Sequence record: PZ445418.1
Strand: one strand, 5' to 3'
Length of the DNA: 43,104 nt
DNA from: a phage
Shown here: positions 5,218 through 40,731 of the stretch, one piece after another
How the letters are laid out: the number at the start of each line of letters is the position of its first letter
Position numbering within the stretch: position 1 is the first letter of the stretch
Notes under the pieces: model-generated
Databases searched by the model: none
What the model was told of the DNA's origin: nothing
Seen by the model: the letters and a program-made list of their open reading frames with translations, nothing else
Translations under genes and position numbers: made by a program

Positions 5218-5246
5218 TTTTGCGTCCTCGTTGTTGGTGTGCAACC

Positions 5247-10148: not shown

Positions 10149-10164
10149 ATTGGAGAATACTACA

Positions 10165-10527
10165 ATGGCAAAAGCACCACTCTTCACACTTGACCCTAAG
10201 CCGACCTTTAAGCTGCCGATTGAGATCCCGCGCCCCGGTGAAAACGAACCGGGAAAAATGACGTTTACCGTGCGCCACCGCCCGATCGACGAATTTTCGC
10301 AGACCATGCAGGATACTGAGCGCAAGTTGTCGGAGTATGACGACAATGACCCTGACGGCTTTAACGTTATGGTCGAGGCCATAATGCACGTCGCTGAAGG
10401 CTGGAATCTGCCGGACGAATTTAACGCGGAGAACGTCCGCCGCCTGGTGGTCAACTACCCGCGCGCGTTCGGCGTGTTCCATACGTCGTACTACCTCGAA
10501 CTGATGGGATTGCGTGAAAAAAACTAA
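10165..10527 (+). CDS. tail assembly chaperone (G-like)
   Basis: 120 aa acidic protein directly upstream of tape measure; ends at slip site; RBS GGAGAA. Confidence 0.6.
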   Translation: MAKAPLFTLDPKPTFKLPIEIPRPGENEPGKMTFTVRHRPIDEFSQTMQDTERKLSEYDDNDPDGFNVMVEAIMHVAEGWNLPDEFNAENVRRLVVNYPRAFGVFHTSYYLELMGLREKN

Positions 10528-10841
10528 TTGAGGCGGCGCGACGCTTTTACGGCCCGCCGCCACCCTCCGAAGATTTAGCCGCGAGTTTATGGGGGGCGGC
10601 CCCTGAAGACGTTTGCCCTCCGGTCGCACTATGGCCCGACAACGCGAAGGTAGTCGCAGTCTTCACCGATTGCTCCACGCAATGGCGCACCGGATTCGGT
10701 GGCGCATACGGCATCGACTACGGCGTACTGGAATGGCTGTTTAGGATGCACGGCATCGAAAACGCACAACGTGCGTTTAAAGATATCAAACTAATGGAAC
10801 GCGTTGCGCTGGATGAAATGGCGCGGCAGAACCCAGCATAA
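10165..10841 (+). CDS. tail assembly chaperone GT-like fusion via programmed -1 frameshift
   Basis: heptamer A_AAA_AAC (10518-10524) just before G stop; -1 frame stays open about 107 codons to TAA at 10839-10841 with no start codon of its own. Confidence 0.5.
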
Positions 10842-10845
10842 CGAA

Positions 10846-11161
10846 GCGGGACAGGGGTGCTGTCCCGTTCTGTCCCGCCCACAATGAATCTGCATACCTA
10901 TTCAGTTTTACTGCATAAACTAAAAGCGGGACGGCGGGACGTCCCGATCTGTCCCGCCCCAGAAATGTGAATACCTATTCAGTTTTACTGCATAAAACAA
11001 ACGGGACAAAAAGCGGGACAGAATGGGGCGGGACAGATCGGGACGTCCCGCCGTCCCCCTCAGTGCTGCCGCGGGTTTCGGCCGATCGGGACAGGCGGGA
11101 CAACCACCAGTCTTTCAGACTAGACGGGGGTCAATGGCCCCCCTCGTCTGAGACTGAATAA
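10846..11161. repeat. iteron element A: GCGGGACA(G/A) array, two 26-bp box repeats, terminal GC-rich hairpin
   Basis: box ATACCTATTCAGTTTTACTGCATAAA at 10894-10919 and 10971-10996; about 9 forward and 5 reverse GGGAC units incl. palindromes GGGACGTCCC; hairpin 11107-11158. Confidence 0.8.
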
Positions 11162-11224
11162 GGTTTGTTTTAAATTCGCTGATACAATAAACGACGGCAA
11201 CTGCATAAAAAGGGGGACTGCATA

Positions 11225-13867
11225 ATGGCAGATCAGGCAGCGGGCATCACGCTCAAGGCGGACGTCGCGCAAATTAAAACGGCTAATACTGTGCTGGATA
11301 CATTTGCGCAGAAATCCGAGAACACAGAACAGAAAGTAAAGAAATTAAACGACACACTCGGCAAGTCGAAGAAGGTTACTAGCGACGCCGCGGGCGGAAT
11401 GGGGAAGTTAGCGACTGAATCGCAGCGTGCCGCCGATGGCATGACTAAACAGGAGCGACTCGCCAACCGGCTAGGCATGTCGACCAAGAACCTGGGATTC
11501 GCATCGCGGAACGCCGCATTCCAGTTACAGGATATCGCGGTAACGCTTGAAATGGGTATGCCGGTGCATCGAGTCATGCTTCAGCAGCTACCACAGCTTA
11601 CTGGGGCGTTTGGCGGGTTGGGGAATACGCTGCGTTATGTCGTCGGCACCCTCGGCCCGTTAGGGATCGGCATCGCTGCATTAACGGCAACGATGGGCGT
11701 TGGCGTGTCGATTATGTCACGAGCAGAGAACCAGGTCGCAGCGCTTAATAAGACGCTGGCGCTGTCGGGTAATATCTCCGGCCTCACCGCTAACCAGATC
11801 CTGGTGCTATCAGAGAACGCCGAGCGGATGGGCGGATCATTCCGCAAGACGCGTGACACAATTCAGTCACTGGCGGCGGCGGGTGTGAAAGCGGGTGCGG
11901 ACTTCGGCGGGTTAGCAAAGGTGGTTAATGACTTTGCAAAGACGTCGGGCCAACCTATTGAGGACGTTGTCGCGTCGGTGGCGAAGCTGTCAACCGATCC
12001 GGTAGGCGGCTTGCGCGCACTGGCGGATAAGTATCACGTCGTAAACGAAGCGCAGATCCAGCAGGTGCAGTCGCTTGTGGATATGGGTCGCGAGACAGAC
12101 GCAGTTGCGTTGGCTAACAAAACCGCCGCCGCGTCGTTTACCACTATGACCAACGATATCAAGGCGAACATGGGCACGCTTGAGCGGTCTATGAACGTCG
12201 TCACATCGGCAGCTAAATCGATGTGGGACGCTATCCTGGATGTGGGCCGCGCGCAGTCCTCGAATGAGTCAGAGATGAAAGCGCGTGAGTCCTTGCAGCG
12301 CATGACCACGGCTTACTATGCCGAGATGAGAGCGGTAAACGCTGCCGGCGGGGTGATGACCGAAGCGCAGAAAGCGCGTATTAACATGCTTTACAGCGAA
12401 CTGGTCGCCCAGGAAAAGGTGGTTGCGTCGCTTACCATGCGCAACCGTGCCGAGCGAGACAACGCCAGCGCCGCTGACGAAGCAGCAAAGGCGAACGAGG
12501 AGGCAAACCGCACCGCCCGCGACCGCGCCGCGTTTGAGAAGGAGTACGCAACCAACTCGAAGCGGCGAGCCAACGAGATCGCCCGCCTCAATTTGCTGAA
12601 TAAGCGCGGTGTTATTAACGAGAAAGAACTAGCCGAGGCGGTGAAGCAGGTCAACGAGCGCTACAAAGACCCCGCACCGAAGAAAGCGGCGGCAGTTCGA
12701 GTCGATGCCGGGCTGAAAATGCTGGAAGTCGCGCGAAGCGAATTAGCCCAGCTTCGTGAGTCTGGAAAGCAGATCGAAGCCAACGCATCGACGCAGACCC
12801 GCACGCAACGCGCGCAAGCGGCCCTAAACAAGCTGATCGCAGATAATGAGCAGTTAATCGCAGCAAGCAAGGAGCGCACACTAACGGCAGCAGAAAAGCA
12901 GCAAATGGCGGAGTTCGAGGCGGTTAAATCTGTACGCGAGCAGATCGTCGAAGAAGCCAAATTGCTGGACGCGAAAGAGAAGCAGATCAAGGCACATGCC
13001 CAGGTCGAGGCATTCATCAAGAACCAGAACGCCGAGCTAAAAGCCACCGCGGCGGGCTATGCGCTTTCCACTCGCGAAGCGGCTAACCTGCGCGAAGAAT
13101 TGCAGCTAATTGACCGCCTTCAGCGTGTAGGTGCTAACGATACTGAGATAGACAAGGCGGTGTCTAAGCTGCGTGAAGTTCAGGAAGCGCAGACCGGAGC
13201 TAACGCCTCATTATGGGATGGATTTAGTCGCGGGCTTCGCGATAGTGTGGATGAAATGGGTAACGGCTATACGCAGATGTCGTCACTCACAAAATTCACG
13301 TTCGGCGCTATGCAGGACACGATGAACGAGTTTTTCGAGACTGGCAAGCTGAACGCAAAGGATATGGTTAAATCCATCCTGAGCGAACTAATCAAGCTGG
13401 CTACCTCGCAGGCTTTCAAGTCGATCGTTAGCGCTTTTGGTGGCGACGGCGGCAAAAACGGATTGTTCGGCGCTATCTTCTCTGGCCTCACCAAGAATGC
13501 GGACGGCGGAGCGTACGCAGGAGGCAATCTCGCGGCCTATTCAGGGAAAGTGGTAAGTCAGCCTACCTTTTTCAGTTATGGCGTCCAGGCGTTCGCTAAT
13601 GGCGCAGGATTGATGGGCGAGGCTGGTCCTGAGGCCATCATGCCACTGAAGCGCGGGCCGGACGGGAAACTGGGCGTTGCCGCGTCTGGCGCAGGCGGGG
13701 GTATGGTCGTGACGACTAACGTTTACACGGGGGCCGGTAAAACGGATACCAGTGTCAGCGGGCCGGACCCCCGTACCGCGCAGGCGTTCGGCAAGCAGAT
13801 CACCGAGGCGGTGAAGGCCGAGATCGTGAAAGCGACGAAACCGGGTGGTGTACTTTACAAACGATGA
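11225..13867 (+). CDS. tail tape measure protein
   Basis: 880 aa, helical N-terminal two-thirds, Gly-rich C-terminus, between GT chaperone and gpM-like gene. Confidence 0.85.
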   Translation: MADQAAGITLKADVAQIKTANTVLDTFAQKSENTEQKVKKLNDTLGKSKKVTSDAAGGMGKLATESQRAADGMTKQERLANRLGMSTKNLGFASRNAAFQLQDIAVTLEMGMPVHRVMLQQLPQLTGAFGGLGNTLRYVVGTLGPLGIGIAALTATMGVGVSIMSRAENQVAALNKTLALSGNISGLTANQILVLSENAERMGGSFRKTRDTIQSLAAAGVKAGADFGGLAKVVNDFAKTSGQPIEDVVASVAKLSTDPVGGLRALADKYHVVNEAQIQQVQSLVDMGRETDAVALANKTAAASFTTMTNDIKANMGTLERSMNVVTSAAKSMWDAILDVGRAQSSNESEMKARESLQRMTTAYYAEMRAVNAAGGVMTEAQKARINMLYSELVAQEKVVASLTMRNRAERDNASAADEAAKANEEANRTARDRAAFEKEYATNSKRRANEIARLNLLNKRGVINEKELAEAVKQVNERYKDPAPKKAAAVRVDAGLKMLEVARSELAQLRESGKQIEANASTQTRTQRAQAALNKLIADNEQLIAASKERTLTAAEKQQMAEFEAVKSVREQIVEEAKLLDAKEKQIKAHAQVEAFIKNQNAELKATAAGYALSTREAANLREELQLIDRLQRVGANDTEIDKAVSKLREVQEAQTGANASLWDGFSRGLRDSVDEMGNGYTQMSSLTKFTFGAMQDTMNEFFETGKLNAKDMVKSILSELIKLATSQAFKSIVSAFGGDGGKNGLFGAIFSGLTKNADGGAYAGGNLAAYSGKVVSQPTFFSYGVQAFANGAGLMGEAGPEAIMPLKRGPDGKLGVAASGAGGGMVVTTNVYTGAGKTDTSVSGPDPRTAQAFGKQITEAVKAEIVKATKPGGVLYKR

Positions 13868-14502: not shown

Positions 14503-15287
14503 ATAAACTATATCGCGAGGCGACGCGCTTTGACCCATCGGGCCGCGTTCGCCTGATTCACATTGACGCGCAGGACGTGGAGCCGGGCGACGGAGCGATC
14601 GGCGCAGGCCATCACTATTTTCACTATTGCTTTATCCCGCACACTGCCGAAGATATTGCCGCCGCAGGCGGTGACGAGTCCAAGCTAAAACCGAAATCCA
14701 TCTTCTTCGGTGGGCAGGAGTTCGAATTTTGGCCCTTTGATTTGTCCGGCCTTAACTTCTCCACATCAACGGCAGCAGAACCGCAGCTGACCATCGTTGA
14801 TATTGGCGGCATAATCACCCGGCTGTCGCTGAATCACGACCAGCTACTGGGCGCGAAGGTTGAGATCATTGATACGTTCGCGAAGTTCCTGGATAACGGA
14901 TCGGACCCAGACCCAACGCAAAAACGTGTCCAGGAGTATTACATCGACTCACAGATCGGTCGCAATCCGGGCAAGCAGATCACCTTTGCGCTATCCTCAC
15001 CTGCGGATATGGAGGGGCAAGTAGTTCCCCGCCGCCAGATCATGAACATGTGCGAATGGGCGTTAAATGGGAAGTACGCCAGCGGGGACGGCTGCACGTG
15101 GAACCTTGCGAAGCCTGGCATCAAATACTACGACGAGCGCGGAAACGAAGTCATCTCGATGACTATGGACCGATGCGGCGGATGCTTGTCGGACTGCTAT
15201 CTTCGTTTTGGACAAGGTCTTGCGGACCCAAAAGCAGCGGTGCTGGACTTCGGCGGTTTTCCAGGGTCCAAATTAATTAAGGGGTAG
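14499..15287 (+). CDS. minor tail protein (gpL-like)
   Basis: 262 aa, C-terminal Cys cluster CGGCLSDC, position after gpM-like. Confidence 0.65.
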   Translation: MNKLYREATRFDPSGRVRLIHIDAQDVEPGDGAIGAGHHYFHYCFIPHTAEDIAAAGGDESKLKPKSIFFGGQEFEFWPFDLSGLNFSTSTAAEPQLTIVDIGGIITRLSLNHDQLLGAKVEIIDTFAKFLDNGSDPDPTQKRVQEYYIDSQIGRNPGKQITFALSSPADMEGQVVPRRQIMNMCEWALNGKYASGDGCTWNLAKPGIKYYDERGNEVISMTMDRCGGCLSDCYLRFGQGLADPKAAVLDFGGFPGSKLIKG

Positions 15288-15289
15288 TC

Positions 15290-16030
15290 ATGCTAACGAA
15301 GAAGGTTAAACGCGATATCGCCGCACACGTTGCGGCATGTCTGCCGGAAGAAGCGTGCGGGCTGGTCGTCATGGTGGGCCGCAAACAAGTGTTTATCCCG
15401 TGCCTGAACGTCTTCGAAGACCCGACCGGCGTGCGCTCGCGCAAAGACGCGTTTACGATTAGCGATATGGCCTGGATGGATGCCGAGGATATGGGTGACG
15501 TCGTGCGCGTAGTCCACTCGCACCCAGGTCAGCGCGAGCTAGCCCCGTCATTGGGCGACGTTAACGGGTGCAACGGCAGCGGCGTCGTCTGGACAATTAC
15601 CAATGAGTATGGCGACTTTATCGAGATCGACCCGGAAGACCCGCCGCTGGTAGGACGCCGATTTGTTCTCGGGGTTACTGACTGTTACGGCCTCGTCATG
15701 GCATGGCATAAAAAGCAGGGCGTAAACCTGCCGGACTTCCGTGTACCATACAACTGGTGGGAGGCAGGCGAAAACCTGTATATGGACAATTGGTATGGCG
15801 CTGGCTTCCGGGAGTGCGAGGAGAATACGCCGGGGGCAATGGTCATCATGCAGATTAGCGCACCCGTGCCTAACCATGCCGGGATATTCCTTCCGGGCAA
15901 CCAACTACTACACCATATCTACGGCAGCCTGTCTAGCGTGATACCTTTCCGGGCAGGATTTTTCCGCGACAATGTGGTTAAATGGGTACGTCATAAAGAC
16001 CTACCGGGGAATATCACAGAATGGCAATGA
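15290..16030 (+). CDS. tail protein gpK-like (JAMM/MPN plus NlpC/P60-like)
   Basis: HSHPGQ...S..D JAMM-like motif, Cys/His peptidase-like C-terminal half, position. Confidence 0.7.
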   Translation: MLTKKVKRDIAAHVAACLPEEACGLVVMVGRKQVFIPCLNVFEDPTGVRSRKDAFTISDMAWMDAEDMGDVVRVVHSHPGQRELAPSLGDVNGCNGSGVVWTITNEYGDFIEIDPEDPPLVGRRFVLGVTDCYGLVMAWHKKQGVNLPDFRVPYNWWEAGENLYMDNWYGAGFRECEENTPGAMVIMQISAPVPNHAGIFLPGNQLLHHIYGSLSSVIPFRAGFFRDNVVKWVRHKDLPGNITEWQ

Positions 16031-16638
16031 CCACGTTTAAATTGTACGGCGTCTTAGGGCGTCGTTTTGGTAAAGTGCATAAGCTGGACTGCTTCACACC
16101 AGGCGAAGGCATCACCGGCCTGTGTGTGAAGTTGCCAGGGTTACAGGACTTTCTAATGTCGGCCCACCTGGACAATATGATGTTCAAGGTGCGCAAAGGC
16201 AACCACACGATGACCGGCTATGATGAACTGGGCGAGTTCCACGGCAACCGCGTCGTTACCATCGCGCCGGTTATGACTGGCGCAAAAAGCGGATTGGGCC
16301 AATTGCTGGCGGGTGTCGCGATCGTAGTGGCGTCGTTCTATACGGGCGGACTTGCTACTGCCGCTTTTGGGGCTTCGGCGGCAACCGCTGCCGCTATCGG
16401 TACGGCGACGTTTTCGTTCGGGATGTCGATGGCGCTGGGTGGCGTTATGCAATTGCTGTCGCCACAACCGAAAGGATTGCAGACACGGCAGGACGTGGAT
16501 AACAAGGCGTCGTACGCGTTCGGCGGACCGGTGAACACAACCGCGCAAGGCACGGCACTTGGTGTATTATGGGGCGAGCGTGAGATCGGCGGCGCTATTA
16601 TTTCAGCCGGAATCGTAACCGAGGACTTGAACGAATGA
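16021..16638 (+). CDS. tail assembly protein gpI-like
   Basis: 205 aa, Gly/Ala-rich hydrophobic C-terminal half, directly upstream of gpJ-like gene. Confidence 0.6.
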   Translation: MAMTTFKLYGVLGRRFGKVHKLDCFTPGEGITGLCVKLPGLQDFLMSAHLDNMMFKVRKGNHTMTGYDELGEFHGNRVVTIAPVMTGAKSGLGQLLAGVAIVVASFYTGGLATAAFGASAATAAAIGTATFSFGMSMALGGVMQLLSPQPKGLQTRQDVDNKASYAFGGPVNTTAQGTALGVLWGEREIGGAIISAGIVTEDLNE

Positions 16639-21334: not shown

Positions 21335-21363
21335 AGTATTGCACCGCTCAACCAAGAATGCAA
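21335..21363 (-). promoter_or_regulatory. sigma70-like promoter TTGCAT-17-AATACT for lipoprotein gene
   Basis: hexamers with 17-bp spacer; -35 overlaps TGCAACCAAT (21359-21368). Confidence 0.4.
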
Positions 21364-21384
21364 CCAATTTATGAGGATTCAGCT

Positions 21385-23388
21385 ATGGCAGCGGGTACAC
21401 TATCCGTAACGAATAACAGCAAGGCGGTAGTCGGTGTCGGCACGACGTTCACCGCGTTTAAAGCTGGCGACTTCTTAACGTTGGTGGTGGGGCAAGTCCC
21501 TTACACTGTTGCTATCGCGTCCGTCGAAAGCAACACCGCGCTTACGCTGGTGCTGCCGTTCGACGGCCCCACGGCAACCGGCCTTGCCTGGGATGGCGTT
21601 GCGCGTGATACCATGTCCCTGGCGACGATGGGCGTAACAGTCCAGGCGCAGAAAGCATTGCGCTTGATGATTGCAGATGAAAACAACTGGCGTGCCATCT
21701 TCGGCGACGCTGAAGAAATCACAGTGACGTTACCAAACGGGCAGGTTATGCAGGGCATGTCATGGGGCTATCTGTCAAGTCTTCTAAAAGACGTTGACCC
21801 GGTGGAGCTTCAGAATATTGCCAACCAGGCTGTAACCGCGAAAAACGATGCTGTGTCTGCCAAGAATGATGCGCAGACTGCGAAGACTGCCGCAGAAACA
21901 GCGCGCACGCAAGCCCAGTCGGCTAAGACCGCCGCAGAGTCAGCACGTGACGACGCGCAGACGGCTAAGACCGCCGCAGAAACAGCACGCACCCAGGCAC
22001 AGACCGCGAAGACCGCCGCAGAAACCGCCAAGGGTGCGGCGGAAGACGCCCGCGATGAGGCGAAGCAATATGCAGAGCAAGCCGGAGCACCATATAAGCA
22101 GGTATTACAACCGCTACCAGACGTGTGGATTCCGTTTAACGATTCGCTGGATATGCTCGCAGGCTTCGCGCCCGGATACAAGACGGTTACGGTAGCCGAC
22201 GACGAGGTTACTATGCCGAGCGACAAGGTGGTGTCGCTCAAGCGCGCATCAACGGCAACATATATTAACAAGTCCGGCGAGTTTAAAATCGCAGAGATTG
22301 ACGAGCCGAGATTCGAAAAATACGGCCTGCTCATTGAAGGCCAACGCACTAACCACATCATCAACGGGGGCGCTCCGGCTGGCTGGGGCCACAGCACATC
22401 GGTTGGCGTGGTTACGGGTACAGATGCTTTCGGTTTCTTGTATGGAAAGTTTGGTATCGGCCAGGGCGACGTGGGCAGTACGACTGTGCTTAACCTGGCT
22501 TCCGTAACATCAGCAAACAGTCTGGATACTTCCGGCGTCGATAAGTATGTAACGGCGTCATGCCGCTTTCGGTCCGACAAGGATGTACGTCTTCGTGTGC
22601 GTTTTGCAGAAGGCGCGGATCAAGGCAGCATGGCTTTCTCTGGCGACGCGTACATTAAATTAAGCGATTTGTCCGTGTCTAAGACGGGTGTCGCGGCAGA
22701 CCGCATTACCGTAGAAGTCGAGAAAGACGAAGCCACCGGATGGAATCGTGCGGTGGTAATGCTGCAAGCTACCACGGCGCTGGTGAACGCGCAGATCCAG
22801 ATCTCGCCAGTGAGCAGTTATGCTGCCGGTGATTATATCGAACTGGCAACTCCGCAGGTTGAGTTAGGGATCGGGGCGTCTTCATATATCATCTCCGGCA
22901 CATCTCCAACCACACGCGCTAGCGATATGGTGACGGTACCGGCTAACCGCAACCTGTATAACCTGCCGTTTACGGTGCTTGTAGAAGTGCACAAGAACTG
23001 GTCTAAGGCGCCGAACGCAGCGCCGCGTGTATTCGACACCGGCGGTCATCAATCGGGTGCGGCTATTATCCTGGGATTCGGGTCTGGCGATATTGACGGG
23101 TATCCGTACTGCGACATCGGCGGTGCTCACAGACGTTTGAATGAAAACGCAGGGCTTAAGCATATGGTTATGGGTATGCGTGTGAAAGAAAACCAGGACA
23201 CTTGCGCGGTGAGTAACGGCATTCTTTCGACCGAATCGAAAACCACATGGACCTACCTGAAAGGGTCTGCGACGCTGCGAATCGGGGGTCAAACAACGAC
23301 TGGAGACAGACACCTGTTCGGGCACGTCCGTAACTTCCGTATCTGGCATAATGCGCTGACCGACCTACAAATGGGGGAATTAGTGTGA
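21385..23388 (+). CDS. tail fibre protein (Ala-rich repeat shaft, C-terminal lectin-like domain)
   Basis: RBS GAGGA; tandem TAKTAAETARTQAQ-type repeats; C-terminal F-R-I-W-H-N-A-L-T-D segment resembles LamG/ConA-like fold. Confidence 0.65.
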   Translation: MAAGTLSVTNNSKAVVGVGTTFTAFKAGDFLTLVVGQVPYTVAIASVESNTALTLVLPFDGPTATGLAWDGVARDTMSLATMGVTVQAQKALRLMIADENNWRAIFGDAEEITVTLPNGQVMQGMSWGYLSSLLKDVDPVELQNIANQAVTAKNDAVSAKNDAQTAKTAAETARTQAQSAKTAAESARDDAQTAKTAAETARTQAQTAKTAAETAKGAAEDARDEAKQYAEQAGAPYKQVLQPLPDVWIPFNDSLDMLAGFAPGYKTVTVADDEVTMPSDKVVSLKRASTATYINKSGEFKIAEIDEPRFEKYGLLIEGQRTNHIINGGAPAGWGHSTSVGVVTGTDAFGFLYGKFGIGQGDVGSTTVLNLASVTSANSLDTSGVDKYVTASCRFRSDKDVRLRVRFAEGADQGSMAFSGDAYIKLSDLSVSKTGVAADRITVEVEKDEATGWNRAVVMLQATTALVNAQIQISPVSSYAAGDYIELATPQVELGIGASSYIISGTSPTTRASDMVTVPANRNLYNLPFTVLVEVHKNWSKAPNAAPRVFDTGGHQSGAAIILGFGSGDIDGYPYCDIGGAHRRLNENAGLKHMVMGMRVKENQDTCAVSNGILSTESKTTWTYLKGSATLRIGGQTTTGDRHLFGHVRNFRIWHNALTDLQMGELV

Positions 23389-31695: not shown

Positions 31696-32472
31696 TTAAC
31701 GGCGGCGACGTTTGCGTGGTGCTTCGTCTTCGTCGTCGTCCTCATCATCTTCGTCATCGCGTGGCTTACGACGTTTACGAGGTTTCTCGTCTTCGTCATC
31801 GTCATCGCGGCGCTTGGACTTTTTGGACTTGCGCGACTTGTCATCTTCGTCATCGTCATCACGACGTTTTGACTTTTTGGACTTGCGCGGTGCTTCGTCT
31901 TCGTCGTTGTCCAGGTCTTCATCGGAGCAAGAAGACCCGCCACCGCCGAAGGCTTCGCCGTCGTCACGGAAGCGTAAACCCAGCAGTCCAGCACCGAGTC
32001 CCTTGCCGTTGGTATTGTTCCACGCCCAAATATCCAGGGACACATTGCAATAACAACCGGAGTAGATCTCCTGGCCTTCAATTTCGTCGCCTTCTACGGT
32101 CAGACCCTGTTCGGTCTGCTTCTCGCCGAGTGACGTTTGAATGTTTGGCTGCTTGAACGATTTGGCATTGATGTACAACATGCCTTCGAATTCTTCGGTT
32201 ACTTCGTCGCGCTCGTCGCCGTCGCGAACTGCGCATTCCTTAGAATCCTGGGCGTAGTGGCGGTCCATCCACTTATCGGCGTTCTTCTCGGATTTCAGCT
32301 TGTCGGTGAGCACTGCGCGCGCTGCCGCTTCCACTTTGTCCACCTGCGGATCTTCTTTATCAAGAAGAATCACTGCACGGTATGCCGGTTTTTGTCCATC
32401 CTGTTTAGGGGTATCGCGCTCCCAAATTTTAAGGAAACATACGCGCACATTTTTCAGGTTGACTTTAGCCAT
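31696..32472 (-). CDS. ssDNA-binding-like protein (DUF2815-like) with charged tandem-repeat tail
   Basis: ATG at 32472 (MAKVNLKNVRV) with AGGA RBS; FGGGG near C-terminus; tail of repeated DDDDED/KSKKSKRR units. Confidence 0.5.
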   Translation of the reverse strand: MAKVNLKNVRVCFLKIWERDTPKQDGQKPAYRAVILLDKEDPQVDKVEAAARAVLTDKLKSEKNADKWMDRHYAQDSKECAVRDGDERDEVTEEFEGMLYINAKSFKQPNIQTSLGEKQTEQGLTVEGDEIEGQEIYSGCYCNVSLDIWAWNNTNGKGLGAGLLGLRFRDDGEAFGGGGSSCSDEDLDNDEDEAPRKSKKSKRRDDDDEDDKSRKSKKSKRRDDDDEDEKPRKRRKPRDDEDDEDDDEDEAPRKRRRR

Positions 32473-34706: not shown

Positions 34707-35135
34707 TTAGTCTTCCAGTTCGAAATAGGTTTCGACGATTTCTTTCAGATCTTTGTGGAAGTCTTCGACGTCGTCATCTTCCAGCTTGGCGATTGATTTG
34801 ATCTCAAACGCTTCCAGCAGGTCGTCAAATTCGTCGTTCGCGTCGTCGTCGTCACCACCAGCGATAATAGCGGCGTACTGTTTGATCTCATCGCGCATCT
34901 CTGCCAGCGGGTCGGCATCTTTCTTACCTTTTCCTTTCGCCGGAGCTTTTTTACCCTTCGCTGGTTTTTCGTCTTCGGCTTCATCGTCGTCATCTTCTAC
35001 GACTTCTTTTTTGGCCTTAGACGGCTTCTTGTCTTCCTGCTTACCAACGGCAGCGCCAACGGTTTCATAATGCTTAGCGATGGTTTCCAGTGCTACTACG
35101 CCGCGAGTAATCAGGTTTACGATTTGCTCAAACAT
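34707..35135 (-). CDS. acidic/Lys-rich early protein, first gene of leftward operon
   Basis: 143 aa from ATG at 35135 with GGAG RBS; runs DDDDEAEDE, GGDDDDANDEFDD, LEDDDVED plus KPAKGKKAPAKGKGKK; track ORF extends upstream to 35363. Confidence 0.5.
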   Translation of the reverse strand: MFEQIVNLITRGVVALETIAKHYETVGAAVGKQEDKKPSKAKKEVVEDDDDEAEDEKPAKGKKAPAKGKGKKDADPLAEMRDEIKQYAAIIAGGDDDDANDEFDDLLEAFEIKSIAKLEDDDVEDFHKDLKEIVETYFELED

Positions 35136-35536: not shown

Positions 35537-35866
35537 ATGAACGTAAACGACGCAATCGAAATGTTAACCAAGACTGTTTGCAGTGAGACAAGCCGGTCCT
35601 GGGCGTATACCGATGCCGTGGGGGCGGTGTTATTCGAGGTCGAACGTCTGCGCAGTGTAGAAAAAGAATTACGCGCCAGGCTGGAATTGCTCAACGGTAC
35701 GGCGGCGAGCAAGCTGCAAAAGCACAATGAGGAAATGGAAGAATACAAAAAGCAGGTTATCCGTTTGCGCGCCGAGGGAAAGTCATGGGCGATGATCGCG
35801 GAGTTGACAGGAATTAATCAGAGCACCGTGCGATCCTGGGTACGCAATAACAAAACTTCGAAGTAA
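35537..35866 (+). CDS. helix-turn-helix DNA-binding protein
   Basis: 109 aa, C-terminal GKSWAMIAELTGINQSTVRSWVRN HTH-like segment; GGAGA RBS. Confidence 0.55.
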   Translation: MNVNDAIEMLTKTVCSETSRSWAYTDAVGAVLFEVERLRSVEKELRARLELLNGTAASKLQKHNEEMEEYKKQVIRLRAEGKSWAMIAELTGINQSTVRSWVRNNKTSK

Positions 35867-35876
35867 GGCAACGGCA

Positions 35877-38141
35877 ATGAGCTTAATTAAATTCGCTGTA
35901 ACAAGACCCGCTAAAAAAGGCGAAAAAGCCAGGGCGGAAAACTTCCAGATGACGACCGATGAGTTTTTCGAATTTATCAAAGATGCGAAAGAAATCTCCT
36001 CGGTGCATATCAACAAGACCGAGGATAAAGCCGAGTATGCGCGCCGCAAGCGTAAGGCCGACGGCATCGTGGCGTATACCAGTGATGGATTGCGTCGCAA
36101 GACCAGTGCGGTGGACCGCTCGATCCTGTTCTTCGATATTGACCGTACCGACACCCGCACCCTACGCCGCTGCCGTAAGGCGTTCATTGACGCGGGTATG
36201 GAACACGTATTTCACACCACAACCGGCGACCGTCACCCACTGAAAGGCGGTATGCGTTGTGCCCGTTTCCTGGTGCTCACCGATAAGCCTGTACCGGCTG
36301 AAGACCTGGGCCGCGTCCAGTATGCACTACTACACCAACTGGGCCTGTCAGATGTGGACTTCGACGATTGCACGAAAGACACTAACCGCCTAATGTACCT
36401 GCCACATCAGCAGTCTGTCGTTAAGTGTCACTACGGCAAACGTGCCCGCGTCCGTCGTCTGCTTCGCCTGGCTGATAAGCTGGGAGTGGAAAAAGAGGAA
36501 GTACGCCGCGAACTAACCCAGGGCGATGACGGCGTGGCAGACGGTATTCTGGATTGGTGCTTCCAGGCGGGATTCGAACCGCTGTCGTCCGGTCGTGGCT
36601 ATGAAGTGCCGTGCCCGAACGAACACCTGCACAGCGGCGAAGGGTCCACCGCTATTATGGTTAAGGATGGCGAGATCCGTTTCAAGTGTATGCACACCGG
36701 AAACGAGTGCTGTTCCGAACTGAACAGACACCAGCACCTGGCGCTACGTCTTATAGGGATCCCGGACCACCTGAACGTCGAACCGCACAACATGTCACGT
36801 AAGCAAATCGCCGCCATCCTCCCTGGACTGGACGACGAGGAAGTCGAATCGTGCTATGAACATATTGTTGATGCAGTTGGCGACGGCGAAGAATACGGCG
36901 TGTGCACCGATGCGGATCTGGATAACGAGCCGGTCGCACTCTTCAGTAAGCACGACCCGATCATAGAAGGCCTGGTAAACTTCAAATCGACCTGGTACAT
37001 GGCTGGCGAGTCGAACATCGGTAAATCGTTCTACGTGCTGGGGCAAATGGGCGCGGTTGCCGCGGGGATTCCGTTCGGTGGCGCGAAGGTAGTCCAGTCT
37101 CATTGCTTCTATTTCGACGCGGAAGGTGGTGAAGCCTCCAACCAGCGTAAAGAAGCATTGCAGATTAAATACGAGCACGACCTGGACAAGCTGCACATTA
37201 TCGATCTGCAATCACGCGGCTGGGATATCACCAGCAAATCCGGCTTGCGTGAAGTTATCAGCTTCATCAACCGCACCGCTAACGGCGAGCCGGTTGGCCT
37301 GGTGGCGTTCGACTCACTCAACCAGACTGTTGCGCTGCGGTCCGCCGATGCAAAACCGTTCGACGAGAATAACGCCAGCGATATGGGTGAAGTGGTCAAA
37401 GCGCTGAAGGCCATTGCGGAAAATACAGGCGGCAGTGCGGGCGTCATCCACCACCCAGCGAAGGGTGCAAACGGCAGCAGATCTCCCCGTGGGTCCGGCG
37501 CGCTTCATGGTGCTGTCGATTCTGCGTTCTTCCTGGAACAGCCGGACGACAACCAGCCAGGCCAACTCAACCTGTACCATGAAAAGGCACGTAACGGCAT
37601 CAAGCAAGCGCCGCGCGGCTTCGTCCTGCTTAAGTGCAAGGTTAAGGTGGATCTCCGCAAGTCCGAGGCGTTCGAAGCCCACCAGTCCACCAGCACCGGG
37701 CCGGACTTCGGTGATGTGGTTGCCGGATGGGACGTCAAGCCAATTGCCTCCACGCCACGCGACGAGACTCTCTACCTCGTACCGGTCGCCCTGGCGCCGT
37801 TCGCTATCGAACAGGCAAAGGCAGCGGGCAAAGCAGCAGTTAAGGAAGAGAACACCGCCGGACCGCGCAACGAAAAAGAAAAGGTACTTTACGCGGCGCT
37901 GGAAAAACTGATGGAAGACAACCCGGACCATACCGGATTCAGTAAATCGGCAATTGTCCGCCAGGCGGGATTGGCAAAAGGTGGCACATCGACGAAGGCA
38001 ATCGACGATATGGTCGAGCGCGGAGTGCTGGGTTTTTACACCGATCCGCACACTGGGGCCATCTATGGGTCGTCGAATATCGTCATTAAAACGAATATAC
38101 CCATCACGCTTTCGGCGACCGACGAAGATTTAAAAGATTAA
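35877..38141 (+). CDS. primase / replicative ATPase fusion protein
   Basis: 754 aa; Cys/His cluster CPNEHLH...CMHTGNEC; Walker A GESNIGKS and Walker B-like LVAFDSLN in C-terminal half. Confidence 0.7.
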   Translation: MSLIKFAVTRPAKKGEKARAENFQMTTDEFFEFIKDAKEISSVHINKTEDKAEYARRKRKADGIVAYTSDGLRRKTSAVDRSILFFDIDRTDTRTLRRCRKAFIDAGMEHVFHTTTGDRHPLKGGMRCARFLVLTDKPVPAEDLGRVQYALLHQLGLSDVDFDDCTKDTNRLMYLPHQQSVVKCHYGKRARVRRLLRLADKLGVEKEEVRRELTQGDDGVADGILDWCFQAGFEPLSSGRGYEVPCPNEHLHSGEGSTAIMVKDGEIRFKCMHTGNECCSELNRHQHLALRLIGIPDHLNVEPHNMSRKQIAAILPGLDDEEVESCYEHIVDAVGDGEEYGVCTDADLDNEPVALFSKHDPIIEGLVNFKSTWYMAGESNIGKSFYVLGQMGAVAAGIPFGGAKVVQSHCFYFDAEGGEASNQRKEALQIKYEHDLDKLHIIDLQSRGWDITSKSGLREVISFINRTANGEPVGLVAFDSLNQTVALRSADAKPFDENNASDMGEVVKALKAIAENTGGSAGVIHHPAKGANGSRSPRGSGALHGAVDSAFFLEQPDDNQPGQLNLYHEKARNGIKQAPRGFVLLKCKVKVDLRKSEAFEAHQSTSTGPDFGDVVAGWDVKPIASTPRDETLYLVPVALAPFAIEQAKAAGKAAVKEENTAGPRNEKEKVLYAALEKLMEDNPDHTGFSKSAIVRQAGLAKGGTSTKAIDDMVERGVLGFYTDPHTGAIYGSSNIVIKTNIPITLSATDEDLKD

Positions 38142-38260
38142 ATTTTGCGCGCATTGGTTGCCGATATGGGAATTCCCATATCGCTAAAAGGTTAAATTTT
38201 GCGCGCATTGGTTGCCATTTTGAGTGTTTTTATTTGGTCGTATTGGTTGCCGTGTAGTGT
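38138..38260. repeat. direct repeats flanking a perfect 20-bp palindrome
   Basis: TTAAATTTTGCGCGCATTGGTTGCC at 38138-38162 and 38192-38216; palindrome GATATGGGAATTCCCATATC at 38163-38182; third ATTGGTTGCC at 38242-38251. Confidence 0.75.
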
Positions 38261-38268
38261 AAATATAG

Positions 38269-38463
38269 TGAATAGTTATGCAGTTTTATTGCATAAAGTA
38301 AGCGGGACAGAAAGCGGGACAAACAAGGGGCGGGACAAAGCGGGACAGCACCCCCGTCCCGCCCCGGATGGCGCGGCTTCCAGAGGAGCGGGACAGCGGG
38401 ACAGCACCCCAGTCTTTCAGACTAGACGGGGGTCATCGGCCCCCCTCGTCTGAGACTGAATAA
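38269..38463. repeat. iteron element B (second copy of element A)
   Basis: box TGAATAGTTATGCAGTTTTATTGCATAAA, six GCGGGACA(G/A) units, terminal hairpin differing from copy A at only 2 positions. Confidence 0.8.
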
Positions 38464-38619: not shown

Positions 38620-38648
38620 TTGCATCCGCCCTAGCACCCTGCTATATT
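38620..38648 (+). promoter_or_regulatory. sigma70-like promoter TTGCAT-17-TATATT
   Basis: flanked by ATTGGTTGCA at 38615-38624 and 38645-38654; leader matches the one upstream of 4453..5217. Confidence 0.55.
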
Positions 38649-40116: not shown

Positions 40117-40388
40117 TATATTGGTTTGGTTTGATCTGCGGGCTGTGCCTGCTTACCGCGGTGCTGGTGGGCGTCCTGATGTTCGTAGTGTGGCCCGCGG
40201 TGGAAGCCGCCAGCATTACCCGCATGACGTTCGAGATATACAAGCGCCGTGGAATCAAGGAGCACCCGACCAGGTTGCGCATGTGGTGGCTGTGGTATCG
40301 CGATATGATAGGCGGGCGAACATTCGAAGCCGTCCGGTCTAGTGGATGGGAGTGGAAAGGCGTCGGCAAGTGGTCCATTTTCGATTAA
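40101..40388 (+). CDS. membrane protein (one TM helix)
   Basis: from ATG at 40101; hydrophobic YWFGLICGLCLLTAVLVGVLMFVVW then basic/Trp-rich tail. Confidence 0.45.
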   Translation: MLHDLIYWFGLICGLCLLTAVLVGVLMFVVWPAVEAASITRMTFEIYKRRGIKEHPTRLRMWWLWYRDMIGGRTFEAVRSSGWEWKGVGKWSIFD

Positions 40389-40405
40389 TTATGCAAGCGT
40401 GATAT

Positions 40406-40440
40406 AGTCCCAGTGAGATAAAACTTACTGGGACTTTTTT
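40406..40440 (+). terminator. intrinsic terminator abutting holin start
   Basis: AGTCCCAGT / ACTGGGACT 9-bp stem, 12-nt loop, TTTTTT ending at 40440; ATG at 40441. Confidence 0.65.
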
Positions 40441-40731
40441 ATGGATAAGCTAAACGAGTGGTTATTCGCCCTTGCGTGTCTTGCTGGTGGCTTCGTCGGC
40501 GCACGCATTCATGGCGAGGCAACGAAAGGGCCGTTGAACTTCGTTTTATATGTCGTGGTTGGCTTCCTGTGTGCCATATTTGGTGCGCCAGCTATTGCCG
40601 AGTGGTCTGGTTTGTCTGGTGAGCGCACTGTTGCCGGTTTGGGCTTCGTAACTGCCATCTTCTGGATGCCAATAGCTGACCGGATCCGGGAGACAATTGC
40701 GTCGCTACACCTTCCGGGGGGCGCAAAATGA
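40441..40731 (+). CDS. holin
   Basis: 96 aa with about three hydrophobic segments, immediately upstream of second membrane protein and endolysin. Confidence 0.6.
   Translation: MDKLNEWLFALACLAGGFVGARIHGEATKGPLNFVLYVVVGFLCAIFGAPAIAEWSGLSGERTVAGLGFVTAIFWMPIADRIRETIASLHLPGGAK

What the first reader, a model, noticed from the sequence alone, without database searches (positions are those of the whole stretch)
38269..38463. Iteron element B is a second copy of element A, 27 kb away
The same three parts recur: a box TGAATAGTTATGCAGTTTTATTGCATAAA, six GCGGGACA(G/A) units and a 52-bp terminal hairpin differing from copy A at only 2 positions. Conservation of a noncoding hairpin at two loci argues for selection on function. 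One copy precedes the tape measure gene and the other precedes the late/unknown cassette, which suggests paired regulatory or replication sites, or a substrate for recombination between the copies.
Basis: seen in the sequence. Interest (0 to 1): 0.7.

Follow-up and report, generated by a model that had tools for sequence, protein, structure and literature searches.

The report
Duplicated origin-like repeat module in phage
A coliphage of the HK578 group carries two copies, 27 kb apart, of a non-coding module (AT-rich box, six CGGGACA repeats, a strictly conserved hairpin). It is most likely the site where the phage's helicase-primase starts DNA replication, because the same repeats sit directly after the homologous helicase gene in many unrelated phages.

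Summary
Element B (38269-38463) matches the right two-thirds of element A (75% identity over 207 columns). Both have the same box, six forward GCGGGACA(G/A) units at the same spacing, and a hairpin that differs at 2 loop bases.

The window is a near-complete Dhillonvirus genome. All 157 Dhillonvirus records in the phage collection match both elements. I found no published function.

New result: in IMG/VR, 52 non-Dhillonvirus loci carry CGGGACA arrays. The only window protein with homologues there is the helicase-primase (31 loci). In 28 of these the array starts 0-112 nt after the helicase stop codon. Closer relatives keep the post-helicase module but use other repeat sequences.

Most likely reading (0.5): an iteron-type replication-origin module. 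B is the ancestral copy beside the helicase-primase gene. A is a lineage-specific second copy that exchanges sequence with B.

Main rival (0.25): operator/terminator arrays at transcription-unit boundaries.

It is a new member of a known kind and of moderate interest. No function has been tested experimentally.

The parts
35537..35866 (+). Small helix-turn-helix protein (109 aa) encoded directly upstream of the helicase-primase gene. It is an alternative candidate for the protein that reads the repeats.
   Evidence: Pfam HTH_23, HTH_28 and Sigma70_r4_2. It is the homologue of HK578 gp45, annotated 'transposase'. A preprint treats gp45-gp46 as replication-initiation genes.
35877..38141 (+). Replicative helicase-primase (754 aa), with an AAA_25 helicase core at residues 357-531. 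It is the only window protein with homologues next to CGGGACA arrays in other phages.
   Evidence: Pfam AAA_25. PHROG 3228, replicative helicase-primase. tblastn and HMM hits in 31 of 52 array-bearing loci.
37869..38078 (+). Predicted C-terminal winged-helix domain of the helicase-primase (about residues 665-734). It is a candidate origin-binding domain.
   Evidence: In the AlphaFold2 model the blocks covering fragment residues 141-210 have pLDDT 78-90, with helix-helix-helix-strand-strand order. All top Foldseek PDB matches are winged-helix DNA-binding proteins such as MarR/MepR, histone H1, TFE and ORC. Their E-values are weak, 0.025 or higher.
38131..38260 (+). Left part of the intergenic region that holds element B. 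It contains two 32-nt direct repeats and three TTGGTTGC motifs, with the perfect palindrome ATATGGGAATTCCCATAT (38164-38181) between the repeats.
   Evidence: Repeat family D6. TTGGTTGC sites at 38154, 38208 and 38243. Palindrome checked.
38269..38297 (.). Box of element B: an AT-rich segment (22% GC over 38261-38301) with inverted arms TTATGCA/TGCATAA and a 7-nt centre. It is a candidate DNA-unwinding or binding site.
   Evidence: The centre is exactly inverted between phages (GTTTTAT against ATAAAAC). The left half, GTGAATAGTTATGCAG, is also present twice after the helicase-primase gene of Salmonella phage FSL SP-031.
38302..38365 (+). Element B, first unit cluster: four forward GCGGGACA units (38302, 38314, 38330, 38340) and one reverse unit (38355-38361).
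   Evidence: The forward CGGGAC cores are essentially invariant in 41 aligned copies, with one core substitution overall. The reverse unit varies.
38366..38387 (.). GC-rich spacer. Its sequence differs between A copies and B copies.
   Evidence: Alignment of 41 module copies.
38388..38404 (+). Element B, second unit pair: forward GCGGGACA units at 38388 and 38396.
38410..38458 (.). Terminal hairpin of element B. There is no T-run after it.
   Evidence: Fold energies. The 5' arm CAGTCTTTCAGACTAGACGGGGG is identical in every copy examined apart from the first base in one copy. The loop and bulge vary, and there are no compensatory changes. It was not detected as an intrinsic terminator.
10846..10961 (.). 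Left part of element A, which B lacks: unit cluster 1 (10846-10880; one forward, two reverse), box 1 (10887-10924) and unit cluster 2 (10925-10961; two forward, two reverse). Cluster 2 is the inverted complement of the end of cluster 3.
   Evidence: Families D4, I1 and I2. This part is less conserved and is rearranged between phages.
10964..11104 (+). Right part of element A, homologous to B: box 2 (10964-11001), four forward and two reverse units (11002-11060), a GC-rich spacer (11061-11085) and two forward units (11087, 11096).
   Evidence: Unit spacing is 12, 15, 10, 48, 9 nt, against 12, 16, 10, 48, 8 nt in B.
11108..11156 (.). Terminal hairpin of element A.
11160..11224 (+). AT-rich leader (38% GC) between the A hairpin and the tape measure start codon. 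It holds a conserved TGATACAAT sequence, which I read as an extended -10 promoter element, and two CTGCATAA motifs (11201, 11218).
   Evidence: Sequence. CTGCATAA occurs 8 times in the window against 1.2 expected. Conserved in other phages. The promoter reading is mine; the scan tool did not call a promoter here.
10150..10841 (+). Tail assembly chaperone gene (G, 10150-10527) and its presumed frameshift extension ending at 10841. This is the gene upstream of element A.
   Evidence: Pfam Phage_TAC_4. HK578 gp15 and gp16 are annotated at the equivalent positions. The frameshift itself is inferred.
11225..13867 (+). Tail tape measure gene, immediately downstream of element A.
   Evidence: ORF list and annotation of matching records.

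Best explanation
A and B are two copies of one cis-acting DNA module. I read it as an iteron-type replication origin belonging to the phage's helicase-primase replicon.

Proposed mechanism:
1. A phage DNA-binding protein occupies the six same-strand CGGGACA units, which keep a fixed spacing. The prime candidate is the predicted C-terminal winged helix of the helicase-primase. The small helix-turn-helix protein encoded just upstream is the alternative.
2. The adjacent 22%-GC box melts.
3. The helicase loads.
4. The invariant-stem hairpin extrudes from single-stranded DNA and acts as a loading or priming signal for the primase.

B is the ancestral copy, because relatives keep a module at that position beside the helicase-primase gene. 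A is a Dhillonvirus-lineage duplicate placed between the tail chaperone and tape measure genes. It would act as a second origin or as a distal cis-replication site, in the way crr works with ori in phage P4. The two copies are kept alike by gene conversion or by co-selection.

Shown here: the anatomy, conservation in 157 genomes, the link between CGGGACA arrays and helicase genes, concerted change of all units in a related phage, and exchange between A and B.

Inferred only: who binds the units, any melting, loading or priming step, and any role for A in replication.
For: 1. Link to the helicase gene across phages. A scan of IMG/VR for three spaced CGGGACA units, made without reference to any gene, found 52 non-Dhillonvirus loci with arrays of up to 14 forward and 8 reverse units in 380 nt. 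The only window protein with homologues in those loci is the helicase-primase, in 31 loci. In 28 of them the array starts 0-112 nt after the helicase stop codon, and almost no units lie upstream of the gene. These helicases have three different N-terminal architectures (Prim-Pol, DnaB_N, none) and come from contigs of 54-70% GC. No other neighbouring protein family is shared.

2. The units change together. Rhizobium phage RHph_X2_25 has a helicase 68% identical to that of locus L046. It has the same array architecture, but every unit reads GCGTGACA.

3. Relatives keep the post-helicase module with other repeats. L096 (69% identical helicase-primase) has the same module. L097 (49%) uses CTCGCAA. 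Salmonella phage FSL SP-031 (44%) uses GGGGAGA and has the same GTGAATAGTTATGCAG box.

4. The conservation pattern fits binding sites. Across 41 copies the forward CGGGAC cores and their spacing are essentially invariant, with one core substitution overall. The reverse units decay (ATCCC, CGCCCC). The orientation of arrays relative to the helicase gene also varies between phages. Both points fit recognition of double-stranded DNA better than RNA pairing.

5. An AT-rich box (22% GC) lies next to arrays of 69-71% GC.

6. The helicase-primase has a confidently modelled C-terminal winged helix.

7. There is a tested precedent. In plasmid pRN1, a primase-helicase-winged-helix protein needs a stem-loop downstream of its own gene, and that stem-loop still works when moved elsewhere on the plasmid (PMC4234260).

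8. A second copy recurs in another lineage. L097 has a 78-nt, 85%-identical second copy of its own post-helicase module 10 kb away.

9. A and B exchange sequence.
Against: - There are no experimental data on replication, binding or transcription for any Dhillonvirus element.
- The predicted winged helix shows no sequence similarity to the C-termini of the other CGGGACA-associated helicases.
- Its closest homologues (44-49% identity) are followed by different repeats. Helicases only about 25% identical are followed by the same CGGGACA. So the protein that reads the units is unresolved.
- Within the Dhillonvirus/Cornellvirus group, the family of the small upstream helix-turn-helix protein changes together with the repeat type: HTH_23/sigma70_r4 with CGGGACA, HTH_3 with CTCGCAA and GGGGAGA. 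This fits a transcription factor as well as an initiator.
- In L097 the repeats form a perfect 20-bp palindrome of the kind bound by Cro-like repressors.
- Both A and B sit at likely transcription-unit boundaries. One clade has a canonical intrinsic terminator just upstream of A. I also read a conserved extended -10 element just after the A hairpin.
- B is separated from the helicase stop codon by 160 nt of other repeats (TTGGTTGC). In the other phages the arrays abut the stop codon.
- FSL SP-031 has only one array, so a second copy is not generally required.
- GC skew follows gene orientation and says nothing about an origin.
Confidence: 0.5

Rival explanations
1. A and B are control regions at transcription-unit boundaries. 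The CGGGACA arrays and the box would be operators for a phage transcription factor, for example the small helix-turn-helix protein gp45. The hairpins would stop or insulate upstream transcription, and promoters just downstream would restart it. The same control cassette would then govern the operon after the helicase-primase gene and the tape measure/tail-tip operon.
For: - Both copies lie between convergently organised same-strand gene blocks and are followed by AT-rich, promoter-like sequence.
- The Ioannina clade has a canonical intrinsic terminator (GGCCGGGTAATTCCGGCCTTTTT) immediately upstream of A.
- HK578 annotators called the first unit hairpin of A a rho-independent terminator.
- In Edwardsiella phage eiAU the chaperone/tape-measure junction holds a terminator, an inserted reverse-strand gene and a promoter-like region.
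- The family of the small helix-turn-helix protein co-varies with the repeat type among relatives.
- The L097 repeats form a perfect palindrome typical of repressor operators, and they recur at a second operon boundary.
Against: - No intrinsic terminator or sigma-70 promoter was detected by the scans on the coding strand of either element. The terminal hairpin has no T-run.
- This reading does not explain why CGGGACA arrays abut the stop codon of helicase genes in at least six deeply diverged phage groups that share no regulator.
- Six to fourteen sites at fixed spacing is more than typical operators have.
Confidence: 0.25
2. The elements act as RNA within the long + strand transcripts. The hairpin would be an RNase III-type processing site or a 3' stabiliser, or a nut/put-like antitermination signal. 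The forward units would pair with reverse units or bind an RNA-binding protein.
For: - Both copies are in the sense orientation of the flanking genes.
- The hairpin is very stable as RNA: -28.4 kcal/mol, about 20 bp with small bulges, z about -4.
- Two-copy box-plus-hairpin signals are known from lambda nutL/nutR and HK022 putL/putR (my own knowledge).
Against: - No Rfam family matches. The only hits are far-sub-threshold miRNA-like matches to the long inverted repeat in A.
- The RNAalifold covariation term is 0.1. The stems never vary, so there is no compensatory support, and conservation is at the sequence level.
- The loop, which nut-type signals need, varies freely.
- Reverse units are less conserved than forward units, the opposite of what pairing partners would show.
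- Array orientation relative to the helicase gene flips between phages.
Confidence: 0.1
3. The second copy is a neutral or selfish duplication, for example a repeat spread by recombination or a mobile element remnant. Its main consequence would be as a recombination substrate, with no function of its own.
For: - The copies exchange sequence.
- The chaperone/tape-measure junction is an insertion hot spot in the related phage eiAU, where it holds a homing-endonuclease-like gene.
- The TH11 record carries a 515-bp tandem duplication spanning A.
Against: - Nearly all 157 records retain A: 149 cover at least 80% of the A query. The forward cores are invariant in 20 examined A copies, in a phage with a tightly packed genome.
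- There is no homology in 5,426 E. coli genomes or 72,556 plasmids.
- No terminal inverted repeats or target duplications are present, and the element sits at only two fixed loci.
Confidence: 0.05

Closest known systems
GenBank annotation of Sodalis phage SO-1 (NC_013600): repeat_region 'region A' (11214-11597) and 'region B' (40178-40657)
   Same: These are the same two elements at the same two positions.
   Different: This is only an annotation note. I found no analysis or experiment in the searchable literature.
pRN1 replication operon: orf56 repressor, ORF904 primase-helicase-winged-helix protein, and an essential stem-loop downstream of orf904 (PMC4234260)
   Same: - The gene order matches: a small DNA-binding protein gene, then a multifunctional primase-helicase with a C-terminal winged helix, then a non-coding region with a large stem-loop right after the gene.
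- The pRN1 stem-loop still works when moved elsewhere on the plasmid.
- The authors proposed the same layout for some bacteriophages.
   Different: - The pRN1 helicase is superfamily 3. Here it is AAA_25 (RecA/DnaB-like).
- The pRN1 stem-loop is conserved in structure but not in sequence. Here the stems are invariant in sequence.
- pRN1 has no iteron arrays and only one copy.
Phage P4 ori and crr, bound by the alpha primase-helicase (my own knowledge)
   Same: - Two separated clusters of the same short octamer repeat, in both orientations, on one replicon.
- A primase-helicase with a C-terminal winged-helix origin-binding domain.
- One cluster lies next to the replication gene.
   Different: - P4 alpha is a superfamily 3 helicase and is not homologous.
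- The P4 clusters are about 4.5 kb apart. Here they are 27 kb apart, and the second lies inside the tail gene block.
- The need for both sites has been tested in P4. It has not been tested here.
rep-ori modules of staphylococcal pathogenicity islands/PICIs, and non-coding origins after primase/helicase genes of dairy siphophages (my own knowledge)
   Same: The origin lies immediately 3' of the helicase-initiator gene. It consists of short iterons flanking an AT-rich stretch, and the iteron sequence co-varies with the initiator.
   Different: The helicase families differ, there is a single copy, and there is no conserved terminal hairpin.
RSF1010 (IncQ) oriV with RepA helicase, RepB' primase and RepC (my own knowledge)
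   Same: Iterons, GC-rich and AT-rich segments, and conserved hairpins (ssiA/ssiB) that a plasmid primase reads on single-stranded DNA. RepA is an AAA_25-type helicase, though the sequence match here is only weak (1g8y, E = 0.45).
   Different: In RSF1010 a separate protein (RepC) binds the iterons, there are two opposed ssi hairpins, and the repeats are 20 bp long. No homology of the DNA elements was found, and the plasmid collection gave no match.

Membership tests
Iteron-type replication origin next to its initiator/helicase gene | A cluster of three or more short repeats of one conserved sequence at regular spacing | tested here: met
   There are six forward CGGGACA units in B and eight forward plus six reverse in A. 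Spacing is 12, 15-16, 10, 48, 8-9 nt in both. The cores are essentially invariant in 41 copies.
Iteron-type replication origin next to its initiator/helicase gene | Adjacent to the gene of the replication initiator or helicase | tested here: met
   In B the first unit lies 161 nt after the helicase-primase stop codon. In 28 other phage loci arrays start 0-112 nt after the homologous gene. A does not meet this feature: it lies between tail genes.
Iteron-type replication origin next to its initiator/helicase gene | An AT-rich DNA-unwinding stretch beside the repeats | tested here: met
   The box regions are 22-30% GC, against 69-71% GC in the arrays and 55% in the genome. Unwinding itself was not tested.
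Iteron-type replication origin next to its initiator/helicase gene | Specific binding of the initiator to the repeats, and initiation of DNA synthesis at the site | not testable with these tools
   This needs EMSA or ChIP, and marker-frequency or 2D-gel mapping.
P4-type two-site system (ori plus crr) | Two distant clusters of the same repeat on one replicon | tested here: met
   A and B are 27.3 kb apart. L097 shows a parallel case with a different repeat.
P4-type two-site system (ori plus crr) | A primase-helicase homologous to P4 alpha (superfamily 3) with a winged-helix origin-binding domain | tested here: not met
   The helicase core is AAA_25, not superfamily 3. A C-terminal winged helix is predicted, but P4 alpha is not among the top 50 fold matches. 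The resemblance is in how it may work, not in family membership.
P4-type two-site system (ori plus crr) | Both sites required in cis for replication | not testable with these tools
   This needs deletion genetics.
Intrinsic (rho-independent) terminator | A GC-rich hairpin followed directly by a run of T on the transcribed strand | tested here: not met
   The scan called no + strand terminator at either terminal hairpin. The sequence after the stem is AATAAGG or AATAAAA.
Known RNA families (Rfam 15) | A covariance-model match at the gathering score | tested here: not met
   There were no matches in the whole window and none at E <= 1 in B. In A there were only miRNA-precursor hits of 20-42 bits against thresholds of 67-99 bits.
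nut/put-type antitermination RNA | Conserved loop or structure recognised in RNA, with compensatory changes in the stems | tested here: not met
   The loop varies freely (TCAATGG, TCAGCGG, TCTGGCA, GTATTGT). The stems never change and the covariation term is 0.1.
RNase III processing hairpin | About 20 bp of irregular double-stranded RNA in an intercistronic region | tested here: inconclusive
   The predicted RNA helix has about 20 pairs with small bulges. This is compatible, but no processing data exist.
Mobile repeat (MITE/REP-like) | Many copies, presence in host or other replicons, terminal inverted repeats with target duplications | tested here: not met
   There are two fixed loci per genome. 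No match was found in the E. coli genomes or plasmids.

The most novel reading that the evidence does not exclude
CGGGACA arrays (and variants such as CGTGACA) together with an AAA_25 helicase may form a widespread, undescribed phage replicon module. In Dhillonvirus and at least one other lineage the module has been duplicated into the structural-gene block. This would give a two-site origin system, ori plus a distal cis site, that couples replication to late gene expression. Its invariant hairpin would be a single-strand priming or loading signal, and a candidate trigger for defence systems that sense origin hairpins (OLD, Lamassu).
Probability: 0.3. Interest if true: 0.7.

Novelty: new member of a known kind. 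Interest (0 to 1): 0.5.

Why it matters
- Dhillonviruses (HK578, SECphi18, BASEL Bas14-18) are now standard phages in anti-phage defence work, yet their replication origin is unknown. This analysis gives two precise candidate sites and candidate binding proteins that can be tested directly.
- A 2026 preprint found that HK578 escapes the OLD system through mutations in the helicase-primase gene and in the promoter of the gp45-gp46 operon. It proposes that origin hairpins trigger OLD. The invariant hairpins at 11.1 kb and 38.4 kb are obvious candidates for such a trigger.
- The rule 'repeat array directly after an AAA_25 helicase gene' could be used to predict origins in many uncultured phages.
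- Cloned copies of the module might titrate the initiator and block infection.

Tried and rejected
- **RNA and tRNA searches.** Rfam at gathering and E-value thresholds, and a tRNA/tmRNA scan, gave nothing meaningful.
- **Promoter and terminator scans.** The scans of both elements found no + strand terminator at the terminal hairpins and no promoter by the tool's criteria.
- **GC skew.** It follows gene orientation, with its minimum at the divergent promoter region near 35 kb. It says nothing about an origin.
- **Literature.** Searches for Dhillonvirus, HK578, SO-1, GCGGGACA and iteron turned up nothing on these elements. One search was badly framed and wasted.
- **Homology search with only the C-terminal 190 aa of the helicase-primase.** It returned nothing, although the full-length search worked.
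- **phmmer, BLASTP and hhalign of the C-terminus against the other CGGGACA-associated helicases.** Only the helicase core aligns.
- **Clustering of neighbouring ORFs.** No shared neighbour family emerged. The upstream ORF calls in high-GC contigs were too noisy to scan further.
- **Unit-spacing histogram in other phages.** It peaks at 11-14 nt with smaller peaks near 21 and 33 nt. The search pattern itself fixed the first spacing, so I do not use this as evidence.
- **Scan of bacterial genomes with the same pattern.** Only 4 loci had the helicase; in three of them the array again lies directly downstream, and in the fourth it overlaps the end of the called ORF.
- **Attempt to find region A in the most divergent Dhillonvirus-like lineage (c50407/L096).** This failed. 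Only one exact copy of the hairpin's 5' arm is present there, and the tape measure region could not be fetched.
- **Other ideas considered and dropped.** DnaA box (TTATGCAGT matches 7 of 9 positions but misses a key one), CsrA-type GGA sponge, T7-type primase sites, pac site, and cruciform or telomere-like flip-flop. None could be tested here.
Full report
**What the window is.** The 43-kb window is a near-complete genome of a Dhillonvirus, an HK578-like virulent E. coli siphophage. It starts at the large terminase gene. The two 600-nt regions around the elements match 157 phage records at 80-95% identity. The gene order equals that of HK578 and Sodalis phage SO-1. Element A fills the gap between the tail assembly chaperone genes (ending at 10841) and the tape measure gene (starting at 11225). 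Element B lies in the 535-nt gap between the helicase-primase gene (35877-38141) and the next small ORF (38677).

**Check of the observation.**
- The box is at 38269-38297.
- Six forward GCGGGACA(G/A) units start at 38302, 38314, 38330, 38340, 38388 and 38396.
- The hairpin at 38410-38458 differs from the A hairpin (11108-11156) at two loop bases.

B aligns with the right part of A at 155 of 207 columns, 74.9%. The repeat finder independently reports the 137-nt repeat and three box copies. Of 26 CGGGACR sites in the window, 21 lie in the two elements, 14 in A and 7 in B, and none of 100 shuffles reached 26. The hairpin is much more stable than shuffled controls, both as RNA (-28.4 kcal/mol) and as DNA (-13.4 kcal/mol). 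A is bigger than B. On its left it has two more unit clusters and a second box, and a 37-nt inverted repeat brackets box 2.

The GenBank record of Sodalis phage SO-1 annotates 'region A' and 'region B' as repeat regions with mutual similarity and a 'possible ...' function. HK578 annotators marked the first unit hairpin of A as a terminator. Full-text searches found no paper that analyses these elements.

**Conservation pattern.** I aligned 41 module copies, 20 A and 21 B, from 22 Dhillonvirus genomes.
- The six forward CGGGAC cores and their spacing (12, 15-16, 10, 48, 8-9 nt) are essentially invariant, with one core substitution in one copy. The bases between the units vary.
- The reverse unit is not strictly kept (ATCCC, CGCCCC).
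- The 5' arm of the hairpin, CAGTCTTTCAGACTAGACGGGGG, is identical in every copy apart from the first base in one copy. The loop varies freely (TCAATGG, TCAGCGG, TCTGGCA, GTATTGT), as does the bulge (T, TC, G).
- RNAalifold gives a covariation term of 0.1, with essentially no compensatory change.

So the stems are conserved as sequence, not merely as structure. The forward units behave like recognition sites rather than pairing partners. The left part of A is looser and is rearranged between phages.

**Exchange between the copies.** If A and B had evolved independently since the duplication, an A copy should be no closer to the B copy of its own genome than to the B copy of any other genome. 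In fact identity at 110 variable, non-diagnostic columns is 0.650 within genomes and 0.606 between genomes. Only 3 of 10,000 permutations reach the observed value. Concrete cases support this. Both copies in Ioannina and LM40P1 carry the 3'-arm variant CCCCCTCCGTCT. Both copies in contig 2597490041 carry AACTCC plus the loop TCAGCGG. Co-selection by a shared binding partner would give the same signal.

**The key comparative result.**
- *The scan.* I scanned IMG/VR for three spaced CGGGACA units without reference to any gene. Besides Dhillonviruses, 52 loci from unrelated contigs (54-73% GC) matched. Many carry dense arrays, up to 14 forward and 8 reverse units in 380 nt.
- *The shared protein.* I then compared all 42 window proteins with these loci. 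Only the helicase-primase has homologues there, at about 25% identity in the AAA_25 core. tblastn found 24 loci and an HMM found 7 more.
- *Position of the arrays.* In 28 of these 31 loci the array begins 0-112 nt after the helicase stop codon, often at the very next base. Almost no units lie upstream of the gene.
- *Diversity of the helicases.* Their N-termini differ (Prim-Pol, DnaB_N, none). They share the AAA_25 core plus about 170 C-terminal residues. No other neighbouring protein family is shared.
- *Typical layout.* Forward units, then a G/C hairpin such as CCCCCCTC-TTAA-GAGGGGGG, then reverse units. The order relative to the gene can be flipped.
- *Concerted change.* In Rhizobium phage RHph_X2_25 the helicase is 68% identical to one of these. 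It has the same layout, but every unit reads GCGTGACA.

**Closer relatives of the Dhillonvirus helicase-primase**.
- A lineage with 69% identity (L096) has the same module.
- A lineage with 49% identity (L097) has CTCGCAA/TTGCGAG repeats starting 22 nt after the stop codon.
- Salmonella phage FSL SP-031 (44%) has seven GGGGAGA units and two copies of the same box half, GTGAATAGTTATGCAG.
- Edwardsiella phage eiAU has GCAACCAA repeats there.

So the post-helicase position holds a repeat module throughout this phage group, and the repeat sequence is lineage-specific. A second copy is not universal. FSL SP-031 has one array only. L097 has a 78-nt second copy, 85% identical, 10 kb away after a head gene. 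eiAU has its repeat both after the helicase-primase gene and before the tape measure gene.

**The candidate binding protein.** A structure model of the last 230 residues of the helicase-primase is poor over the helicase part. It is confident (pLDDT 78-90) for a helix-helix-helix-strand-strand unit at about residues 665-734. All top fold matches are winged-helix DNA-binding domains, though with weak E-values. This gives the same domain logic as P4 alpha and pRN1 ORF904. For pRN1, experiments show that a stem-loop just downstream of the replication gene is essential and still works when relocated. The authors proposed the same arrangement for some phages (PMC4234260). A recent preprint treats HK578 gp45 and gp46 as replication-initiation genes and discusses origin hairpins as triggers of the OLD defence system.

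**Most likely mechanism.** The module is an iteron-type origin. A DNA-binding protein occupies the CGGGACA units, the adjacent 22%-GC box melts, the helicase loads, and the hairpin extrudes as a loading or priming signal. B is the ancestral copy next to the gene. A is a Dhillonvirus duplicate that acts as a second origin or as a distal cis site. The anatomy, the conservation, the helicase association and the exchange between copies are shown here. Binding, melting, priming and any replication role of A are inferred. I put this at 0.5.

**What weighs against it.**
- The predicted winged helix is not detectably similar to the C-termini of the other CGGGACA-associated helicases.
- The nearest homologues use other repeats, while distant helicases share CGGGACA.
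- Among close relatives, the family of the small upstream helix-turn-helix protein changes together with the repeat type.
- The L097 repeats form a perfect 20-bp palindrome like a repressor operator.
- Both A and B sit at probable transcription-unit boundaries. One clade has a canonical terminator just before A. I read a conserved extended -10 element (TGATACAAT) just after the A hairpin, which the scan tool did not call.

Together these points sustain the main rival, transcription control arrays, at 0.25.

An RNA-level role gets 0.1. There is no Rfam match and no covariation, the loop is free to vary, and the array orientation flips between phages. A neutral or selfish duplicate gets 0.05. 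It is retained in all 157 genomes, its cores are invariant, and nothing similar exists in 5,426 E. coli genomes or 72,556 plasmids.

**Verdict.** The finding is real and conserved, but as an observation it is already annotated. The added value here is the link between CGGGACA arrays and AAA_25 helicase genes across diverse phages. That link turns 'unknown repeats' into a specific, testable origin hypothesis for a phage group widely used in defence research. It is a new member of a known kind (origins next to their initiator/helicase gene), with a P4-like second site. Interest is moderate, 0.5.

Noticed in passing
window 5241, 5254, 25765, 25782, 32529, 32545, 35340, 38154, 38208, 38243, 38525, 38616, 38647 and others: The octamer TTGGTTGC occurs 19 times against 1.9 expected, mostly in intergenic regions and often in pairs. 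At 38620-38648 it overlaps what I read as a -35 TTGCAT / 17 nt / -10 TATATT promoter. The same 22-nt sequence occurs inverted at 5231. The motif, as GCAACCAA, is also abundant after the helicase-primase gene and before the tape measure gene of Edwardsiella phage eiAU. It is probably a phage-specific promoter or operator element.
   Followed up: partly
window 38131-38216: Two 32-nt direct repeats (97% identical) lie 54 nt apart. They flank a perfect 18-nt palindrome, ATATGGGAATTCCCATAT (38164-38181), directly after the helicase-primase stop codon. Some relatives (HK578, SO-1) have only one repeat and lack the palindrome.
   Followed up: no
window 38283-38289, and the same position in related loci (for example L025, L007, L019, L030): The 7-nt centre of the B box is exactly inverted between phages: TGCA-GTTTTAT-TGCA in about half and TGCA-ATAAAAC-TGCA in the rest. 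This suggests an inversion or template switch between the 7-nt inverted arms. It could also mean that the orientation of the centre does not matter.
   Followed up: partly
L032 (Escherichia virus TH11, MT446389.1) about 15263-16295: A tandem duplication of about 515 bp, 99.8% identical, spans the whole of region A, so this record has three hairpin copies. The sibling phage TH13 lacks it. The record is flagged UNVERIFIED, so it may be an assembly artefact or a real rearrangement at the repeats.
   Followed up: partly
L028 (Ioannina), L029 (LM40P1), L015, just upstream of region A: This divergent clade has a canonical intrinsic terminator (GGCCGGGTAATTCCGGCCTTTTT) between the chaperone gene and region A. 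It also has a TTGGTTGCA motif right after the A hairpin in place of GGTTTGTTTT.
   Followed up: no
L095 (Rhizobium phage RHph_X2_25, MW960032.1) 3670-4060: The non-coding region after the primase/helicase gene has the same architecture as the CGGGACA arrays, but all 14 or so units read GCGTGACA/TGTCACGC. A CCCCACACCCC-TTTA-GGGGTGGGGG hairpin sits in the middle.
   Followed up: partly
L097 12330-12407 and 22098-22175: In an unnamed phage lineage with a helicase-primase 49% identical to the window's, the post-helicase repeat module is built from ACTCGCAA units and includes the perfect palindrome ACTCGCAAAATTTTGCGAGT. It recurs 10 kb away, directly after the Mu_F-like head gene.
   Followed up: partly
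window 35877-37000 (N-terminal half of the helicase-primase): The family consensus shows an FIDLDG motif (DxD, as in archaeo-eukaryotic primases) and a Cys/His cluster (CPN..H ... C.H.HC). Pfam does not detect a primase domain in the window protein.
   Followed up: no
window 31712-31924 and 34822-34998: Repeats of 42-54 nt rich in GTCTTCGTC (families D1 and D5) lie inside minus-strand genes, one being the Gp2.5-like single-strand-binding protein region. They probably encode acidic repeat tails.
   Followed up: no
window 21838-22005: Two tandem 84-nt copies, 71% identical, lie inside the tail fibre gene 21358-23388 (family D3).
   Followed up: no
window 10527-10841: The + strand reading frame that ends at 10841 has no start codon of its own in the ORF list. 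It corresponds to HK578 gp16. This fits the usual programmed frameshift product of tail assembly chaperones.
   Followed up: no
PQ843332.1 (Escherichia phage P-GXEC-L2P5, 88,607 bp): This record is twice the normal genome length and holds 7-8 matching places for the elements. It is probably a dimeric or concatenated assembly.
   Followed up: no
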